A DNA stretch of 32,000 nucleotides from Candidatus Saccharimonadota bacterium (lineage in GTDB: Bacteria; Patescibacteriota; Gracilibacteria; BD1-5; UBA2023): assembly GCA_046350815.1 (NCBI GenBank), contig JAXLZO010000001.1, forward strand, positions 180,001 to 212,000, in the 5' to 3' direction. The notes beneath the pieces are model-generated. The model saw only the letters and a program-made list of their open reading frames with translations. It was not told the DNA's origin and did no database searches. The translations under genes and the position numbers were made by a program. Below, in pieces: positions 1 through 32,000 of this stretch (positions are counted from its first letter, which is position 1; each line of letters starts with the position of its first letter).

Positions 1-441
1 ACTATGTTCCCGAAAAGACACCAAAGAAAAATCCGATCGAAAATCACTCACTACCGTATCTGTTTGATAATCACCAGCAACCAACGTAAGCTCTACTTGA
101 TCGATTAATTCTTGTTGAAAAAAAGCATTATACACCATAGCCCCACCGAGGATAAAAAGTTTCTCAATTCATTTTCACTCAGCAAAATCAAGGAGCTCTG
201 GGATGGATGCAAATGTCTGAATTCCATCGATAGGTTTTTTACTTAAGACAAGATTTTGACGACCAGGAAGAGGACGAAATGCTTCTGGCAAGCTCTCATA
301 AGTACGCGAACCCATAACAACCACTCCACCCATCGTAAGCTCTCGAAAATGTTTCATATCCTCAGGGATATGCCAAGGGAGTGTGCTATTTTTTCAAATT
401 CCACACATCTCATCCATAGCAAGTACAGCCGTGATTTTCAT
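1..441 (-). CDS. folA: Dihydrofolate reductase; the 3' end runs off the left edge (147 codons visible)
   Basis: ATG at 439-441. Table-25 translation is [52 protein letters not shown]...[12 protein letters not shown], which carries the DHFR IGxxxxLPW, GxxTYES and ILGG motifs. In-frame TGA codons (e.g. 394-396) fall at Gly positions. Confidence 0.85.
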
Positions 442-450
442 AGAGAAAAA

Positions 451-879
451 TTAGCTTTTACCAGTAGTACCAAACCCACCACGATCTGATGTATTCATGG
501 ATGTAACCACTTCAAACTCTGCACGCTCCACTGGAACAAACATAGCTTGTGCTATTCGATCTCCAGGATTGAGTGTAATGCTTTCTTTTCTCATATTTAT
601 AACAGCGCACTTGATCGTATCGTTATCACCACAATAGTCTTGATCAATAATACCAAAACTATTCACAAACATAAGTCAAAAATTCTTGAAAGTAGACGAT
701 CTTGGGCAGAGCATAAGTACATAACCAGGGGGTGTGGCAATGACAACACCCGTCTCCACAAGCGCATATTCACCCGGAGCAATCGTTTTTGTCTCACTCA
801 CGGGCATATCAAAAGCACACGCGCCAGCTGTCTTATACTCAAGCATAACTCACTCAGGAAGCTTTGTTCGAACTATCAT
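451..879 (-). CDS. dut: dUTP diphosphatase (dUTPase), 142 aa
   Basis: ATG at 877-879 and TAA at 451-453. Motifs are TAGACAFDM, GIIDQDYCGDND and the C-terminal DRGGFGTTG. There are two in-frame TGA codons (850-852 and 676-678, the latter in KNF-G-L). The gene ends 9 nt upstream of folA. Confidence 0.9.
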
Positions 880-915
880 AGTAATGAAAGGAAATGATAC
901 AAAGTTAGTATAGTA

Positions 916-955
916 AAATTTCCTGAAGTAAAAAATTTTTTACTTCAGGAAATTT
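916..955. terminator. Perfect 40-nt palindrome (20-bp arms) between the L,D-transpeptidase gene and dut
   Basis: aaatttcctgaagtaaaaaa / ttttttacttcaggaaattt. Every position from 916 to 955 was checked as complementary. It lies 44 nt downstream of the TAG at 999-1001 on the minus strand. Confidence 0.6.
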
Positions 956-998
956 ATCTTTTATCAAAGAGAAATTATTAAATACAAGGCATAAGACC

Positions 999-2243
999 CT
1001 AATCTATATAAACCGTTGTACCAATTTTTGACCAGTCGTAGAGCCATTTTACTGCTTCATAGGGAGTATTCACACATCCATGGCTTCCTGCAGATGTATA
1101 GCTCGATACTCAGAACTCTCTACGCCAACAATTATGCTTATTGCAGGCATCGTGAATACCATAGGCACCATAGAACGCAATCCAATAATCAACCCAGAGT
1201 TCGTATTTTTCATCTGGAAAAGGAGATTTTAAGATTTTATTCCGTTGTTTATTGTACACTTGAAATACCCCTGTTACGGTTTCATGTTTGTTACGGCCAC
1301 TTGTAATGGGTGTTGAGAGGACTAATTCCCCATCTTCATAAACGTACATTTTTTGATCCAAGAGTGAGATAAATACTTGTGAGTATATATCAAAAAATGG
1401 TGCGGCAGGAGGAGTATTGTTTCCCCATTTTTGTTTCTCAGAGAGAACAAGATCCTGTCGCTTGATACGTGCAATATTACGAAGCCTCTCAGACTCATCA
1501 CGATACTCTTGGAGTACACGAAAAGAAGACTCATATGACTCCTTCAGATTTTGATAAGAAACATTAGCTAAATTCTCCTCGGAAAATATATCATGATATG
1601 ATTGCAAGATAGTCACTTCATCAAAAGAGAGTTCACCATCATGATTGACGCGATAAAAAGAAGCGAGAAAATTAATCTCATGTTCGAGTGCGCGGATTTT
1701 TTGCACGAGTAATACCCTTTGAGCTGATTCAGATGCTCGTAGTGCTGATCGCACTTCTTGTTGAAATGGAATCATGGATCCAGAATCATCATCTCATGAT
1801 ACATCAGAAGCAATTTCAGTATTTTCTTGGGGAATATATCCTGAAGAGAGATTTGAATTCTGCGATTGTTGTATATGTCCTTCCTCTGCATTTGTCTTGA
1901 ACAAAATAGGTTCCTCAAGTTGGAGGACTTCTCATTTAAGAAAATGAATACACAAAACAACATATGACAGAGTTGAGCGTATACCTCATTGAATCACCAT
2001 CAAGCCGTAACTGGCTGGTGTATATTGAGATTGATTTTCTTCAGAAAGTTGAGTCCATCGATATCCGAGTAAACATCATAAAATTACAATAAAAGAAGCA
2101 CAAAGAAGGAGTATTGCTACCAAAATGCGAGATTTTTTGAAGGAACGAAGCGAGAAATTTGGAAACATCAGAAACATCAAGATCACTATTGGAGAATATA
2201 GTAAGATTTGTAGAAAAAAAGCAATTTTTCCTTTCTCTTTCAT
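999..2243 (-). CDS. L,D-transpeptidase (YkuD domain) with an N-terminal membrane anchor, up to 414 aa
   Basis: The C-terminus reads ...YGIHDACNKHNCWRREF-G-VSSYTSAGSHGCVNTPYEAVKWLYDW, the YkuD catalytic H...SHGC motif. The frame is open apart from TGA from 2243 down to the TAG at 999-1001. The N-terminal extension contains the TM segment SRILVAILLLCASFIVILGCLLGY. The start is ambiguous (ATG at 2241-2243, 2175-2177 or 2166-2168); the track ORF starting at 1775 would lack any export signal. Confidence 0.75.
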
Positions 2244-2275
2244 TAAACAATGCTCATTTTACGTAAAATTATTGA

Positions 2276-29641: not shown

Positions 29642-29675
29642 AAAAAAGAGCGACGTAAAAGTTCGCTCTTTTTGA
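29642..29675 (+). terminator. Rho-independent terminator
   Basis: aaaagagcga-cgtaaaagt-tcgctctttt followed by a T-tract. Confidence 0.7.
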
Positions 29676-29701
29676 CTTTTTGGATACACTCTGGGAAAAA
29701 T

Positions 29702-30904
29702 ATGCCATACTACATTTCTCATCTTGGTCACAACCAGGCACTCTCTATTGCAGAACTCTACAAAGCTCTCAAGGCAACTGATATGACTATCCACCATGGT
29801 GGATATCTGAGCTTTTCAAGTATCTACAATCGAAGCGAGGTACAAGCAAAATTTCCAACCCTCGGTGGACAACGTCTTATTGCAGAGATATTCAAAGATC
29901 ATGTATCGTGGAGAGATCAAGATCAAGCTCTCTTGGATGCTATAGATTCTACTATGGGTGATAATAAATATCAATTCGCACTCTCAAGCAACAAGCACAT
30001 GGAGCTACAAAATATAGCCATGAACTTTAAAAAGCAGCTCGTCAAAGAGGGAAAAAGCATACGAATCATCAATAAAAACAATTCTCCAATATCTCCAGCA
30101 CTTGCGAAAAAGGAGCGCATCGGAATAAAAGCATTTGAGTGGCACATTATCGATCGAGGAAATGACGAATGTATCATCGCCGAAACAATTGCCTTTCAAG
30201 ACATAGACAGTTATAGTGACCGTGATATGGGAAAAAGTCGAGATATGCAAGTTGGTATGCTTCCCCCAAAACTCTCACAAATACTCCTCAATCTCGCTGA
30301 ACTCAAACCCCATCAGGCATTCTACGATCCATTCTGTGGTCTTGGAACCCTTCCAATAGAAGCTCTTCGTTATGAAGACATACTTATTATCGGATCTGAT
30401 ATAGAAGAAAATCTTGTTACAAAGACACAATCCAACCTGGAACAAATGCAAGATCATCACAATCCACATCATATTGAGACATTCACGCGCAATGCTCTAC
30501 AGCCATCACATCACCTTAGTGAAATTCGAAAACGCTATCCAAATCGATCCTTGACTATTGCTACAGAGTGATATCTTGGTCCTATTATTCGAAAATACAG
30601 CAATTATCGTGCGATCGAAGAAGCTCTCGATGAGACAACTCCCATTACCCATGGATTCATCAAACAACTTGCAAAAGATCTACAAAAATGAGAGCGAGCC
30701 TGTATTTGTATGCCTTGTTGGTTTTACAGTGAAAAATACACCTATATTCCACAAATAGTATCACTTCTGAGCGCATCTTGATTTGCTATTGAACGCATCG
30801 AGCATCCACTCTTAGATCGTTCGTATACAGCACGATGATCTCTTATCTACCGTCGTTCAACACAAAACGTCGGACGAGAAATCTTTATACTTGTGAAGTC
30901 ATAA
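29702..30904 (+). CDS. SAM-dependent methyltransferase (UPF0020/Trm11-like, probably RNA-modifying), 400 aa
   Basis: ATG at 29702. SAM motif I is FYDPFCGLGTLPIEA. The motif IV-like stretch is TIATE-G-YLGP, with TGA at 30569-30571. The frame was checked to the TAA at 30902-30904. The exact substrate is unknown. Confidence 0.65.
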
Positions 30905-30940
30905 TAAAAAGCGTGATTTCTCACGCTTTTTATTATGACT
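30897..30940. terminator. Bidirectional terminator: perfect 20-bp arms with a 4-nt loop
   Basis: agtcataataaaaagcgtga-tttc-tcacgctttttattatgact. It overlaps the methyltransferase stop codon and ends 4 nt before the TAA of the convergent gene. Confidence 0.8.
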
Positions 30941-30943
30941 GAA

Positions 30944-31318
30944 TTATTTCTTCATAATCTTTGCCCAGATTCCACCAAGCAATGATTTCGGTTCTTTTGT
31001 TGCCTTTTCATCGAGAGTTTTTTGTACATCATGCATCTTATCCATCGCAACCTCTTGAAGCTCTTCTGCCTTGTCTTTTGCTTCCTCAAGCACATCTTTA
31101 CTGATCTTTTGAGCCTTTTCAAAAAGTAATTCTGCCGGGGTTTTCGAGTGATCCTCTTTCTTTTCCTCAGCGACTACCTCAGATGTTTTTGGAGCATCTT
31201 CTGAGGGAGTTTCTGTGACTACCTCAGCAACAACTAGAGTTTCAGGAGCATTCGTTTCTGTTGAAGCAACTACGGTTTCTTCTTTTTTCGTAGCTTTTGG
31301 TTCTTTTGCAGCAGGCAT
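30944..31318 (-). CDS. Acidic, Lys/Glu-rich hypothetical protein, 124 aa
   Basis: The protein runs MPAAKEPKATKKEE...LLGGIWAKIMKK and ends in TAA at 30944-30946. An alternative upstream ATG at 31358-31360 would add a short hydrophobic N-terminus. Confidence 0.5.
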   Translation of the reverse strand: MPAAKEPKATKKEETVVASTETNAPETLVVAEVVTETPSEDAPKTSEVVAEEKKEDHSKTPAELLFEKAQKISKDVLEEAKDKAEELQEVAMDKMHDVQKTLDEKATKEPKSLLGGIWAKIMKK

Positions 31319-31384
31319 AACAAAATGAAAAATAATAAAAGATGCTTTGATACTAGTCATTCTCACGAAAAATGCAAGAGTGAG

Positions 31385-32000
31385 CTACCACATTACGACA
31401 AATTCTCACTTTGGCGGATGATTTTGAAAATGTTTTCTCATATCAGCTACACTCATTCGGAGAAATTCTTCGAATTTTTTTGTAAGTTCACGACCAATAA
31501 CTATTGGCGTATCTCCCCCAAAATATTCCTCGATGTCTTCAAGTGTTCGATCAATACGATGTACTGACTCATATATAGCAACGGTATAATCCTTTGTTTT
31601 AAGGCTTGTCAGAAGGGTATGGCGTCACTTTTTAATAGGTATAAATCCGAGAAAACGAAAATCATGCATATGAAGACCGCTCGCACAAAGTGCCGTGATA
31701 ACAGCTGATGGTCCAGGAATTGGTGAAATATCGACTCATGCCTCGATAGCACGACCAAGGAGAGTGTAGAGCGGATCGGATATACCAGGCGTTCCAGCAT
31801 CACTGATAATAGCCAGATGTTCTCCAGCAAGAAGCCTGGATATGATTACTTCAATCTTCGCGGGTGAGGAATGAGCATGAAAAGACACAAGCGGACGTTT
31901 GATGTCGTAATGATTGAGAAGATTGCTCGACGTTCGTGTATCTTCGCAGAGTATAGCATCCGCCTCAGAGAGTATTCGTACTGCTCGATAGGTTATATCT
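31385..32000 (-). CDS. rsmI: 16S rRNA (cytidine-2'-O)-methyltransferase RsmI; the 5' end runs off the right edge
   Basis: The translation reads DITYRAVRILSEADAILCEDTRTSSNLL...ISDAGTPGISDP...PIPGPSAVITALCASGL...FLGFIPIKK-G-R...VAIYESVHRI...IGRELTKKFEE...PPK-G-EFVVMW. TAG is at 31385-31387. Track ORF 31609..31830 is an out-of-frame shadow. Confidence 0.9.

What the first reader, a model, noticed from the sequence alone, without database searches (positions are those of the whole stretch)
1..32000. UGA is read as glycine throughout (translation table 25); the standard-code ORF track is misleading
Every recognisable housekeeping gene is broken only at TGA in the supplied track. Reading TGA as sense yields full-length dnaJ, ligA, recF, alaS, dut, gatC, folA and rsmI. 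TGA codons fall on family-invariant glycines rather than tryptophans. In DnaJ they are the G/F region GQ-TGA-GGFG-TGA-FEGGF (4955, 4940) and RLK-TGA-DG (4244). In LigA it is TR-TGA-NG (16566), in Ala[14 protein letters not shown] (22204) and SA-TGA-VRRI (21853), in RecF SR-TGA-EN (19101), in DHFR GI-TGA-KNSTLPW (394), and in the transposase ESYF-TGA and KRGR-TGA-A (24614, 24644). There is also an internal control: in two paralogous repeats of the surface-protein gene, codon TGA (24166-24168, ..CTNS-x-VIIGF) aligns with GGT (25139-25141, ..CTNS-G-AIVGF). All inferred genes end in TAA or TAG. This code is established for Gracilibacteria and Absconditabacteria (SR1), so a candidate-phyla-radiation origin is inferred.
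Basis: partly seen in the sequence, partly recalled or inferred. Interest (0 to 1): 0.7.

Follow-up and report, generated by a model that had tools for sequence, protein, structure and literature searches.

The report
UGA-as-glycine code in a Gracilibacteria contig

Summary
Under the standard code the window is shattered: its longest open frame is 384 codons, and only 17% of its length lies in open frames of at least 200 codons. Reading TGA as sense, but not TAA or TAG, restores full-length folA, dut, dnaJ, ligA, recF, gatC and alaS, a partial rsmI, and other genes.

TGA means glycine, not tryptophan. At TGA columns, 75 standard-code AlaRS orthologues and solved-structure homologues show Gly or variable residues and never Trp. 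In three TGA-recoded relatives, TGA interchanges with GGN 34 times and with TGG 0 times. A 20-amino-acid likelihood picks Gly only.

All named LigA relatives are Candidatus Gracilibacteria (= Altimarinota), at only 41-50% identity. CGA and CGG remain arginine, so the extra Absconditabacteria reassignment is absent and table 25 suffices.

Small corrections: one coordinate is 3 bases off (24644 should be 24647), and roughly half of the TGAs lie at variable positions, not invariant ones.

tRNA-Gly(UCA) and loss of RF2 could not be tested because no tRNA gene lies in the window or in the fetched relatives. This is a known phenomenon in its known clade, so novelty is low, but it matters in practice because public protein databases translate these lineages with table 4.

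The parts
1..441 (-). folA (dihydrofolate reductase), C-terminal end cut by the window edge; 3 in-frame TGA (the one at 394-396 is in GI-x-KNSTLPW)
   Evidence: Pfam PF00186, 121.9 bits. All four PDB comparators shown have G at the first TGA.
451..879 (-). dut (dUTPase); 2 in-frame TGA
   Evidence: Pfam PF00692. NCBIfam NF001862, 103.2 bits against a cut-off of 103. The TGA at aa 68 aligns with G in the E. coli and other dUTPases shown.
999..2243 (-). L,D-transpeptidase (YkuD domain) protein; 5 in-frame TGA
   Evidence: Pfam PF03734, 78.9 bits.
4064..5179 (-). dnaJ; 6 in-frame TGA (4955 and 4940 in the G/F region, 4244 in RLK-x-DG)
   Evidence: Pfam J, CXXCXGXG and C-terminal domains. NCBIfam TIGR02349, 351.9 bits. 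PDB comparators have G at RLK-x in 2 of 3 and N/G in the G/F region.
14931..17030 (-). ligA (NAD-dependent DNA ligase, 699 aa); 13 in-frame TGA
   Evidence: Pfam: five families hit, covering the adenylation, OB, zinc-finger and BRCT domains. Of 12 alignable TGA, E. coli has G at 6 and T. filiformis at 7, with W at 0. Seven columns are strictly G/'W' in 116 relatives.
18861..19940 (-). recF; 4 in-frame TGA (19101 lies in the signature SR-x-EN)
   Evidence: NCBIfam TIGR00611, 185.7 bits against a cut-off of 172. PDB RecF has G at aa 95 and 285, and D and K at the other two.
19944..20228 (-). gatC; 1 in-frame TGA
   Evidence: Pfam PF02686, 27.2 bits against a cut-off of 23. Syntenic gatC in L083 and L085.
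21817..23607 (-). alaS, short form of 596 aa; 4 in-frame TGA (22204 and 21853 on conserved Gly)
   Evidence: Pfam PF01411, 469 bits, plus tRNA_SAD. Panel of 75 standard-code AlaRS: G in 61/75 at aa 468, G in 72/73 at aa 585, variable at aa 377 and 549, and no W.
23968..28942 (+). One large surface-protein gene (about 1405 codons after removing the IS) with two tandem N-terminal modules. TGA at 24166-24168 in module 1 aligns with GGT at 25139-25141 in module 2. There are 39 in-frame TGA in all.
   Evidence: 74-nt direct repeat, 89% identical (24110-24183 and 25083-25156). In-silico excision of the IS gives a single open frame.
24328..25084 (+). IS1595-family insertion sequence. Perfect 17-nt terminal inverted repeats, transposase at 24377-25069 with 10 in-frame TGA (24614 and 24647 among them), flanked by a direct 'TTACCAA'.
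   Evidence: Pfam PF12762, 86.3 bits. Inverted repeat I3. Junction sequences. The standard-code homologue P0098 (Chromatiales) has G at 5 of the 8 TGA columns compared by eye and W at none.
28974..29636 (+). FKBP-type peptidyl-prolyl isomerase lipoprotein; 3 in-frame TGA
   Evidence: Pfam PF00254.
29702..30904 (+). RMKL-like (UPF0020) methyltransferase; 4 in-frame TGA
   Evidence: Pfam PF01170.
31385..31999 (-). rsmI (16S rRNA C1402 2'-O-methyltransferase), N-terminus beyond the window; 3 in-frame TGA
   Evidence: NCBIfam TIGR00096, 182.9 bits against a cut-off of 167.9. Pfam TP_methylase.
5925..12975 (-). Three large conserved ORFs of unknown function (5925-8006, 8019-10886, 10906-12975), readable only with TGA as sense; 13 and 19 in-frame TGA in the first two
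   Evidence: No Pfam hit. L083 holds three consecutive large ORFs in the same position, and the third window ORF aligns with its counterpart at 49% identity.
13093..13980 (+). Peptidase_S74 (endosialidase-chaperone) domain protein; 5 in-frame TGA
   Evidence: Pfam PF13884, 61.4 bits. The same gene is called in L081, L083 and L085.
17088..18776 (-). 562-aa secreted or membrane protein; 6 in-frame TGA; syntenic in relatives
   Evidence: Orthologues of 556 aa in L083, L084 and L085; L083 and L085 align at 86% and 91% identity.

Best explanation
The window is chromosomal DNA of a Gracilibacteria (BD1-5 / Candidatus Altimarinota) bacterium that uses translation table 25. UGA is a sense codon for glycine, and only UAA and UAG terminate.

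Shown here: TGA occurs in frame in almost every gene, at 1.76% of codons, about 24% of all Gly codons. It sits on positions that are Gly in standard-code orthologues. It interchanges evolutionarily with GGN and never with TGG. CGA and CGG remain arginine, so there is no second reassignment.

Inferred from the literature, not shown here: decoding is by a dedicated tRNA-Gly with anticodon UCA that carries glycine identity elements (G1:C72, C2:G71, G3:C70, U73), and release factor 2 has been lost so that UGA no longer terminates (PMC8629427, citing Campbell 2013 and Rinke 2013).
For: 1. Only TGA-as-sense opens the frames, not TAA or TAG.
2. Full-length Pfam and NCBIfam matches span several TGA codons in folA, dut, dnaJ, ligA, recF, gatC, alaS and rsmI.
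3. AlaRS panel of 75 standard-code orthologues translated from DNA: the window's TGA columns are 50% G and 0% W. The recoded relative L004's 14 TGA columns are 78.5% G and 0% W, the same as its GGN columns (76.7% G). True TGG columns are 61-67% W.
4. The log-odds over 20 amino acids is positive only for Gly. For the window it is +6.4 bits against -15.7 for Trp. For L004 it is +35.4 against -51.8.
5. Codon-level alignment with syntenic relatives L083, L085 and L004: TGA<->GGN 34, TGA<->TGG 0, TGG<->GGN 0 and TGA=TGA 61, with binomial P = 1e-10.
6. Solved-structure homologues have G at 6-7 of 12 LigA TGA columns, at DHFR aa 16, at RecF aa 95 and 285, and at dUTPase aa 68. None has W.
7. Composition: GGN is 6.0% and rises to 7.8% with TGA. 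TGG is 1.0% and would be 2.8% if TGA were Trp.
8. Intragenic control: TGA at 24166 against GGT at 25139 in 89%-identical tandem modules.
9. All named LigA relatives are Gracilibacteria, Altimarinota or 'gcode 4'.
10. CGA and CGG fall on conserved Arg and swap only with Arg codons.
Against: The decoding machinery was not observed. There is no tRNA gene in the window or in six related loci, and the presence or absence of prfB cannot be judged from 32 kb.

About half of the window's TGA codons lie at variable positions where comparators have D, K, N, E or A, so they say nothing either way.

The window's own AlaRS has only 4 TGA, so the strongest panel statistics come from the relative L004 and from codon interchange.

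Lineage placement rests on best named hits at only 41-50% LigA identity, not on a phylogeny.

There is no proteomic evidence for this organism.
Confidence: 0.96

Rival explanations
1. UGA is read as tryptophan (translation table 4), as in Mycoplasmatales and several insect endosymbionts. This is also how the public protein database translated this lineage.
For: TGA is clearly a sense codon. Public catalogues show W at these positions, for example P0001, and about a third of LigA relatives have inflated W content. TGA to TGG is a single transition.
Against: None of 75 standard-code AlaRS has W at any window or L004 TGA column. The Trp log-odds is -15.7 bits for the window and -51.8 for L004. 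There are 0 TGA<->TGG interchanges against 34 TGA<->GGN. Columns holding true TGG in the window show W/F/V and essentially no G in relatives, whereas columns holding GGN show 'W' in 22-32% of table-4-translated relatives, so that 'W' is an artefact standing for TGA. Trp content would be 2.8%.
Confidence: 0.01
2. UGA is a normal stop, and the window is a graveyard of pseudogenes or a low-quality assembly with errors that create TGA.
For: Under code 11 every gene is broken. Some public assemblies of the same DNA were called that way (L082, L086).
Against: All in-frame breaks are TGA and none is TAA or TAG, over 9919 codons. Frames stay intact, and homology continues at full strength after each TGA. 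TGA positions are conserved between independent assemblies, 29 of 32 with L085 and 31 of 47 with L083. The same sequence recurs in independent samples.
Confidence: 0.005
3. UGA encodes selenocysteine, or is read through by a context-dependent recoding signal, and is not globally reassigned.
For: UGA is the Sec codon in standard-code bacteria.
Against: There are 175 in-frame TGA across nearly all genes, including a transposase and surface proteins, which is far too many for Sec. Comparator columns are Gly, not Cys; only one L004 column is Cys-rich. No gene ends in TGA.
Confidence: 0.002
4. The organism is an Absconditabacterium (SR1) using the extended code in which CGA and CGG are also reassigned to Trp, so table 25 alone would still mistranslate.
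For: Absconditabacteria share UGA=Gly. Shulgina and Eddy predict CGA/CGG=Trp in them, and CGG=Trp in some Gracilibacteria (PMC8629427).
Against: CGA is the commonest Arg codon here, at 123 per 10,000, against fewer than 37 per 10,000 reported for Absconditabacteria. CGA and CGG sit on invariant Arg (AlaRS GLE-R-I, LigA SVG-R-SG, dUTPase GD-R-IAQ). The AlaRS panel shows R/K and 0% W at those columns. In relatives they swap only with Arg codons. No named LigA hit is Absconditabacteria.
Confidence: 0.02

Closest known systems
Translation table 25 (UGA = Gly) of Gracilibacteria (BD1-5/GN02, Candidatus Altimarinota) and Absconditabacteria (SR1)
   Same: In-frame UGA at conserved Gly. UAA and UAG are the only terminators. 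GC (35-42% per 2-kb window) lies within the 21-53% range reported for the group. The best named homologues are Gracilibacteria.
   Different: Nothing in kind. The lineage is divergent: LigA is only 41-50% identical to named Gracilibacteria, and the closest relatives are unnamed MAG contigs (GCA_964536125.1, ERZ724506). TGA supplies about 24% of Gly codons. The tRNA-Gly(UCA) and loss of RF2 were not observable.
Translation table 4 (UGA = Trp) of Mycoplasmatales, Entomoplasmatales and insect endosymbionts
   Same: UGA is a sense codon, UAA/UAG are the stops, and GC is lowish. Gene callers that choose a code by coding density pick this table for such contigs.
   Different: The amino acid differs. 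UGA columns are Gly and never Trp, and TGA never interchanges with TGG.
Absconditabacteria extended code (UGA = Gly plus CGA/CGG = Trp; Shulgina and Eddy 2021)
   Same: UGA = Gly.
   Different: CGA and CGG are abundant, ordinary Arg codons here.
IS1595 family insertion sequences (ISXO2-like transposase)
   Same: DDE_Tnp_IS1595 domain, a single transposase ORF, short terminal inverted repeats and a short target duplication.
   Different: The transposase carries 10 UGA codons, so it can only be made in a table-25 host. The element is very compact, at about 757 bp.

Membership tests
Table 25 organisms (UGA = Gly) | Frequent in-frame UGA in conserved genes, with termination only at UAA/UAG | tested here: met
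   175 in-frame TGA in 9919 codons of 26 genes. Full-length domain matches span them. Terminators are 18 TAA and 7 TAG.
Table 25 organisms (UGA = Gly) | UGA aligns with conserved glycine in orthologues from standard-code organisms | tested here: met
   AlaRS panel, PDB homologues and the 20-amino-acid log-odds all pick Gly only. TGA<->GGN 34 against TGA<->TGG 0.
Table 25 organisms (UGA = Gly) | tRNA with anticodon UCA carrying glycine identity elements (G1:C72, C2:G71, G3:C70, U73) | not testable with these tools
   No tRNA gene in the window or in loci L004 and L081-L085. The rest of the genome is not available.
Table 25 organisms (UGA = Gly) | Absence of release factor 2 (prfB) | not testable with these tools
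   Absence cannot be shown from 32 kb. No prfB lies in the window.
Table 25 organisms (UGA = Gly) | Phylogenetic membership of Gracilibacteria/Absconditabacteria | tested here: met
   All named LigA hits are Candidatus Gracilibacteria, Altimarinota or 'uncultured bacterium (gcode 4)'. Taxid 363464 is shared by both names. The closest AlaRS locus among GTDB species representatives, L004, is also TGA-recoded. This is best-hit evidence, not a tree.
Table 4 organisms (UGA = Trp) | UGA aligns with conserved Trp and interchanges with UGG | tested here: not met
   0% W at TGA columns, 0 TGA<->TGG interchanges, and a Trp log-odds of -15.7 and -51.8 bits.
Absconditabacteria extended code | CGA and CGG rare and aligned with Trp | tested here: not met
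   CGA is 123 and CGG 18 per 10,000 codons. Both fall on conserved Arg, with 0% W in the panel, and they swap only with Arg codons.
Selenocysteine recoding | Rare UGA at Cys/Sec positions of selenoproteins | tested here: not met
   UGA is 1.76% of codons across nearly all genes, and comparator columns are Gly, not Cys. SECIS elements were not searched for.
IS1595 family | DDE_Tnp_IS1595 transposase between terminal inverted repeats | tested here: met
   PF12762, 86.3 bits. Perfect 17-nt inverted repeats at 24328-24344 and 25068-25084.
IS1595 family | 8-bp target-site duplication (family value recalled from memory, not checked) | tested here: inconclusive
   A 7-nt direct 'TTACCAA' flanks the element, but it overlaps the ends of the inverted repeat, so the exact length is ambiguous.

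The most novel reading that the evidence does not exclude
This divergent Gracilibacteria branch (LigA 41-50% identical to named members) might decode UGA by machinery that differs from the textbook tRNA-Gly(UCA) plus RF2 loss. Alternatively it might tolerate low-level ambiguous Gly/Trp reading of UGA and UGG through U34 wobble, a possibility raised in PMC8629427. Nothing in the window speaks to this. The comparative data show only that the selected meaning of UGA is Gly.
Probability: 0.05. Interest if true: 0.55.

Novelty: already known. Interest (0 to 1): 0.2.

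Why it matters
There is no new biology here. UGA = Gly in Gracilibacteria and Absconditabacteria has been established since 2013, is NCBI table 25, and has been confirmed by proteomics (PMC4032931) and by Codetta (PMC8629427).

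The value is practical. With code 11 every gene in this window is fragmented. With table 4, which the large public protein collection used for this lineage, about 1.8% of residues, a quarter of all glycines, are written as tryptophan. That damages homology searches, profiles and structure predictions.

Even with the right table, long spurious antisense ORFs appear, so gene calling still needs care. The window also shows that mobile elements in these genomes are tied to the code: the IS1595 transposase needs 10 UGA codons read as Gly.

Tried and rejected
1. The genome-contig scan with the TGA-free N-terminal 376 aa of AlaRS found no close relative. The best hit was 61% identical, and the window's own genome is not among the GTDB species representatives. 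The scan was still useful, as a standard-code panel and for one recoded relative.
2. Source names for the NCBI-held IS1595 relatives carried no taxon.
3. tRNA scans of the window and of six related loci found nothing.
4. Extending past the right edge through the TGA-free gene 30944-31360 reached only dnaA fragments on a 3.2-kb contig, with no tRNA or release-factor gene. A first attempt using the GTG start found nothing.
6. The PDB hits for AlaRS cover only the catalytic fragment, so they were uninformative for three of its four TGA. The DNA-derived panel replaced them.
7. In a notebook entry I first miscounted the LigA Gly matches as 7 and 8. A recount gives 6 of 12 for E. coli and 7 of 12 for T. 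filiformis.
8. I decided against a metagenome-wide pattern search for tRNA(UCA). Hits could not be tied to this organism and would only repeat published results.
9. I considered and rejected table 4, pseudogenes or assembly error, selenocysteine, the extended Absconditabacteria code, and a phage origin. The phage origin fails because the window carries housekeeping genes, lies next to dnaA and is syntenic with MAG contigs.

Full report
OBSERVATION

Under the bacterial standard code the window has no open frame longer than 384 codons. Treating TGA as sense yields frames of up to 1287 codons. These tile about 80% of the window as a consistent gene set. The effect is specific to TGA: treating TAG or TAA as sense leaves the longest frame at 384 or 418 codons.

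Codons in open frames of at least 200 rise from 1857 to 13576. The code-11 value is 0.17 of the window length, against 0.6-2.0 in the standard-code loci listed from the later fetch.

The twelfth, '24644', is a three-base slip for 24647.

GENE CONTENT

With X placed at every TGA, so that no amino acid is presupposed, the following are recovered:
- folA (1-441, minus strand)
- dut (451-879, minus)
- a YkuD L,D-transpeptidase (999-2243, minus)
- dnaJ (4064-5179, minus)
- ligA (14931-17030, minus)
- recF (18861-19940, minus)
- gatC (19944-20228, minus)
- a short-form alaS (21817-23607, minus)
- an IS1595 transposase (24377-25069, plus)
- an FKBP isomerase, a UPF0020 methyltransferase, a Peptidase_S74-domain protein, and a partial rsmI (31385-31999, minus)

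RsmI, RecF and Dut exceed NCBIfam equivalog cut-offs. GatC passes the Pfam cut-off but not the NCBIfam one, and DnaJ is just under its NCBIfam cut-off with six X residues in the query.

The 26-gene set holds 175 in-frame TGA in 9919 codons. It ends in TAA 18 times and TAG 7 times.

WHICH AMINO ACID

Composition already favours Gly. In an 18-gene subset, GGN is 5.95% of codons and becomes 7.8% with TGA. TGG is 1.03% and would become 2.8% if TGA were Trp. The standard-code AlaRS panel has 8.2% Gly and 1.3% Trp.

For a test independent of anyone's annotation, I fetched 80 loci encoding AlaRS from GTDB species representatives. I screened them for TGA recoding and translated the AlaRS genes directly from DNA. 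The screen marks 79 of them as standard-code. The closest by identity, L004 (61%, 'Patescibacteria group bacterium', 27% GC), is as strongly recoded as the window.

In the alignment with 75 standard-code AlaRS, results were as follows.
- The window's four TGA columns: G in 61 of 75, G in 72 of 73, and two variable columns. Pooled, that is 50% G and 0% W.
- L004's fourteen TGA columns: 78.5% G and 0% W. This is indistinguishable from its GGN columns (76.7% G).
- True TGG columns: 61-67% W.

A Codetta-style log-odds over all 20 amino acids is positive only for Gly. For the window it is +6.4 bits, with Trp at -15.7. For L004 it is +35.4 bits, with Trp at -51.8.

SOLVED-STRUCTURE COMPARATORS

All of these come from standard-code organisms, and they agree.
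- LigA: of 12 alignable TGA columns, E. coli has G at 6 and T. filiformis at 7. The others are N, P, L, A, E or R.
- DHFR: aa 16 in GI-x-KNSTLPW is G in all four comparators shown.
- RecF: aa 95 and aa 285 (the SR-x-EN signature) are G, and two other positions are D and K.
- dUTPase: aa 68 is G.
- DnaJ: RLK-x-DG is G in two of three comparators. The G/F-region codons fall in low-complexity sequence.

No TGA aligns with W anywhere.

CODON-LEVEL EVIDENCE

A LigA search found two close unnamed relatives, P0142 (95% identical) and P0143 (83%). Their contigs are syntenic with the window. L085 is NCBI GCA_964536125.1 contig CAZHVP010000045.1, and L083 is ENA ERZ724506.

I aligned all orthologous gene pairs codon by codon.
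- L083: window TGA aligns with TGA 31 times, GGN 8 times and TGG 0 times. Its own TGA aligns with window GGN 13 times and TGG 0 times.
- Summed over L083, L085 and L004: TGA<->GGN 34, TGA<->TGG 0, TGG<->GGN 0 and TGA=TGA 61.

TGA to TGG is a single transition and would be silent under table 4, so its complete absence is decisive. The binomial P is 1e-10 against equal odds. The GGN partners are GGA 17, GGT 10, GGG 5 and GGC 2.

A DATABASE ARTEFACT THAT COULD MISLEAD

The large public protein collection translated these lineages with table 4. The closest IS1595 homologue, P0001, has W at most of the positions where the window has TGA (9 of the 10). About a third of LigA relatives have inflated Trp and depleted Gly.

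Read correctly, this supports Gly.
- Columns where the window has GGN show 'W' in 22-32% of such relatives.
- Columns where the window has true TGG show W with F, V and M or L, and essentially no G.
- Seven of the 13 LigA TGA columns (aa 155, 207, 317, 584, 654, 670, 674) are strictly G/'W' bimodal.
- The one clearly standard-code family member named by NCBI, P0098 from Chromatiales, has G at 5 of the 8 transposase TGA columns compared by eye and W at none.

THE INTERNAL CONTROL

The transposase gene is bounded by perfect 17-nt inverted repeats (24328-24344 and 25068-25084) and flanked by a direct 'TTACCAA'. Removing the element in silico joins 23968-24329 to 25090-28942 in frame. The result is one ORF of about 1405 codons.

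The junction reads '...GGAFKQYFT|NMFGNIETGTGKICTNSGAIVGF...'. This repeats the first module, '...GIYFTNMFGNIEAGTGKICTNS-TGA-VIIGF...'. The TGA (24166) against GGT (25139) correspondence lies within a 74-nt stretch that is 89% identical.

LINEAGE AND COMPLETENESS OF THE CODE

Every taxonomically named LigA relative is Candidatus Gracilibacteria, Candidatus Altimarinota or the historical 'uncultured bacterium (gcode 4)'. Their identity to the window is only 41-50%. NCBI taxid 363464 is Altimarinota, and it is the taxid Shulgina and Eddy list for Gracilibacteria.

That paper also reports that Absconditabacteria reassign CGA and CGG to Trp, and that some Gracilibacteria may read CGG as Trp.
- CGA is the commonest Arg codon here, at 123 per 10,000 codons. 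CGG is at 18 per 10,000.
- Both sit on invariant arginines.
- The AlaRS panel shows R/K and 0% W at those columns.
- In relatives they swap only with other Arg codons.

Table 25 is therefore sufficient for this window, and a Gracilibacteria origin is favoured over an Absconditabacteria one.

MECHANISM

Shown here: UGA is a sense codon whose selected meaning is glycine, and UAA and UAG are the only terminators.

Inferred from the literature: decoding is by a tRNA-Gly(UCA) with glycine identity elements, accompanied by loss of RF2. Shulgina and Eddy use the presence of that tRNA and the absence of prfB as the markers of the reassignment, and they found two 'Gracilibacteria' genomes lacking the tRNA and retaining RF2 in which UGA is a stop (PMC8629427). 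By its title, Hanke et al. (PMC4032931) report recoding of UGA to glycine in a BD1-5 bacterium.

Neither marker could be tested. There is no tRNA gene in the window or in six related loci. Extension past the right edge reached only dnaA.

RIVALS

- Table 4 is excluded by the column and codon-interchange data.
- Pseudogenisation or assembly error is excluded for four reasons. All breaks are TGA, frames are never shifted, homology continues past each TGA, and TGA positions are conserved between independent assemblies (29 of 32 and 31 of 47).
- Selenocysteine is excluded by frequency and by Gly, not Cys, comparators.
- The extended Absconditabacteria code is excluded by the CGA/CGG analysis.

VERDICT

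This is a correct recognition of a known alternative code in the clade where it is known. Novelty is low and interest modest. The practical consequence is the correct re-annotation of this contig, plus awareness that public catalogues carry Gly-to-Trp mistranslations for this lineage.

Noticed in passing
window 24328-25084: A compact IS1595-family element (about 757 bp, perfect 17-nt inverted repeats, flanking direct 'TTACCAA') has recently split a surface-protein gene of about 1405 codons (23968-28942). Its transposase needs 10 UGA codons read as Gly, so it is tied to table-25 hosts. Copies up to 90% identical sit on many public contigs of about 1 kb, which suggests a multicopy repeat that breaks assemblies.
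   Followed up: partly
proteins P0001-P0120 and P0142-P0261; loci L081, L082, L086: The large public protein collection translated this lineage with table 4, giving W at every UGA. The same DNA was called with code 11 (fragments) in some Logan assemblies and with UGA as sense in others. This produces systematic Gly-to-Trp errors in homologue sets.
   Followed up: partly
window 4124-5200(+), 15066-16166(+), 12976-13863(-): With TGA as sense, long spurious ORFs appear antisense to real genes, opposite dnaJ and ligA. The 5' 300 codons of the 10906-13863 ORF are a false extension overlapping the real Peptidase_S74 gene on the other strand. Table-25 gene calling therefore needs more than ORF length.
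   Followed up: partly
window 5925-8006, 8019-10886, 10906-12975 (minus strand): Three consecutive large ORFs (about 690-955 aa) have no Pfam match, hydrophobic C-terminal segments, and Ala/Gln-rich stretches that look like coiled coil (judged by eye, no predictor run). Relative L083 has three consecutive large ORFs in the same position. Function unknown.
   Followed up: no
window 13093-13980 (+): A Peptidase_S74 (endosialidase chaperone / tail-fibre type) domain protein with a signal-peptide-like N-terminus is encoded in a cellular, syntenic context next to a Cys-rich lipoprotein gene (13990-14742) that contains no TGA at all.
   Followed up: no
L086 (beyond window position 32000): dnaA lies immediately beyond rsmI past the right edge, so the window is adjacent to the probable replication origin. 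recF is about 12 kb away, not in a dnaA-dnaN-recF cluster.
   Followed up: no
window 21817-23607 (-) and loci L001-L080: AlaRS is a short form (596 aa) lacking the C-terminal C-Ala domain. The related AlaRS genes extracted from the fetched loci are also short; the complete ones are mostly about 570-710 aa. They come from CPR bacteria, DPANN-labelled MAGs, Clostridia, spirochaetes and others.
   Followed up: no
window-wide codon usage: CGA is the preferred Arg codon (123 per 10,000), and TGA supplies about 24% of Gly codons. Both are unlike the CGA-depleted Absconditabacteria described in PMC8629427.
   Followed up: yes
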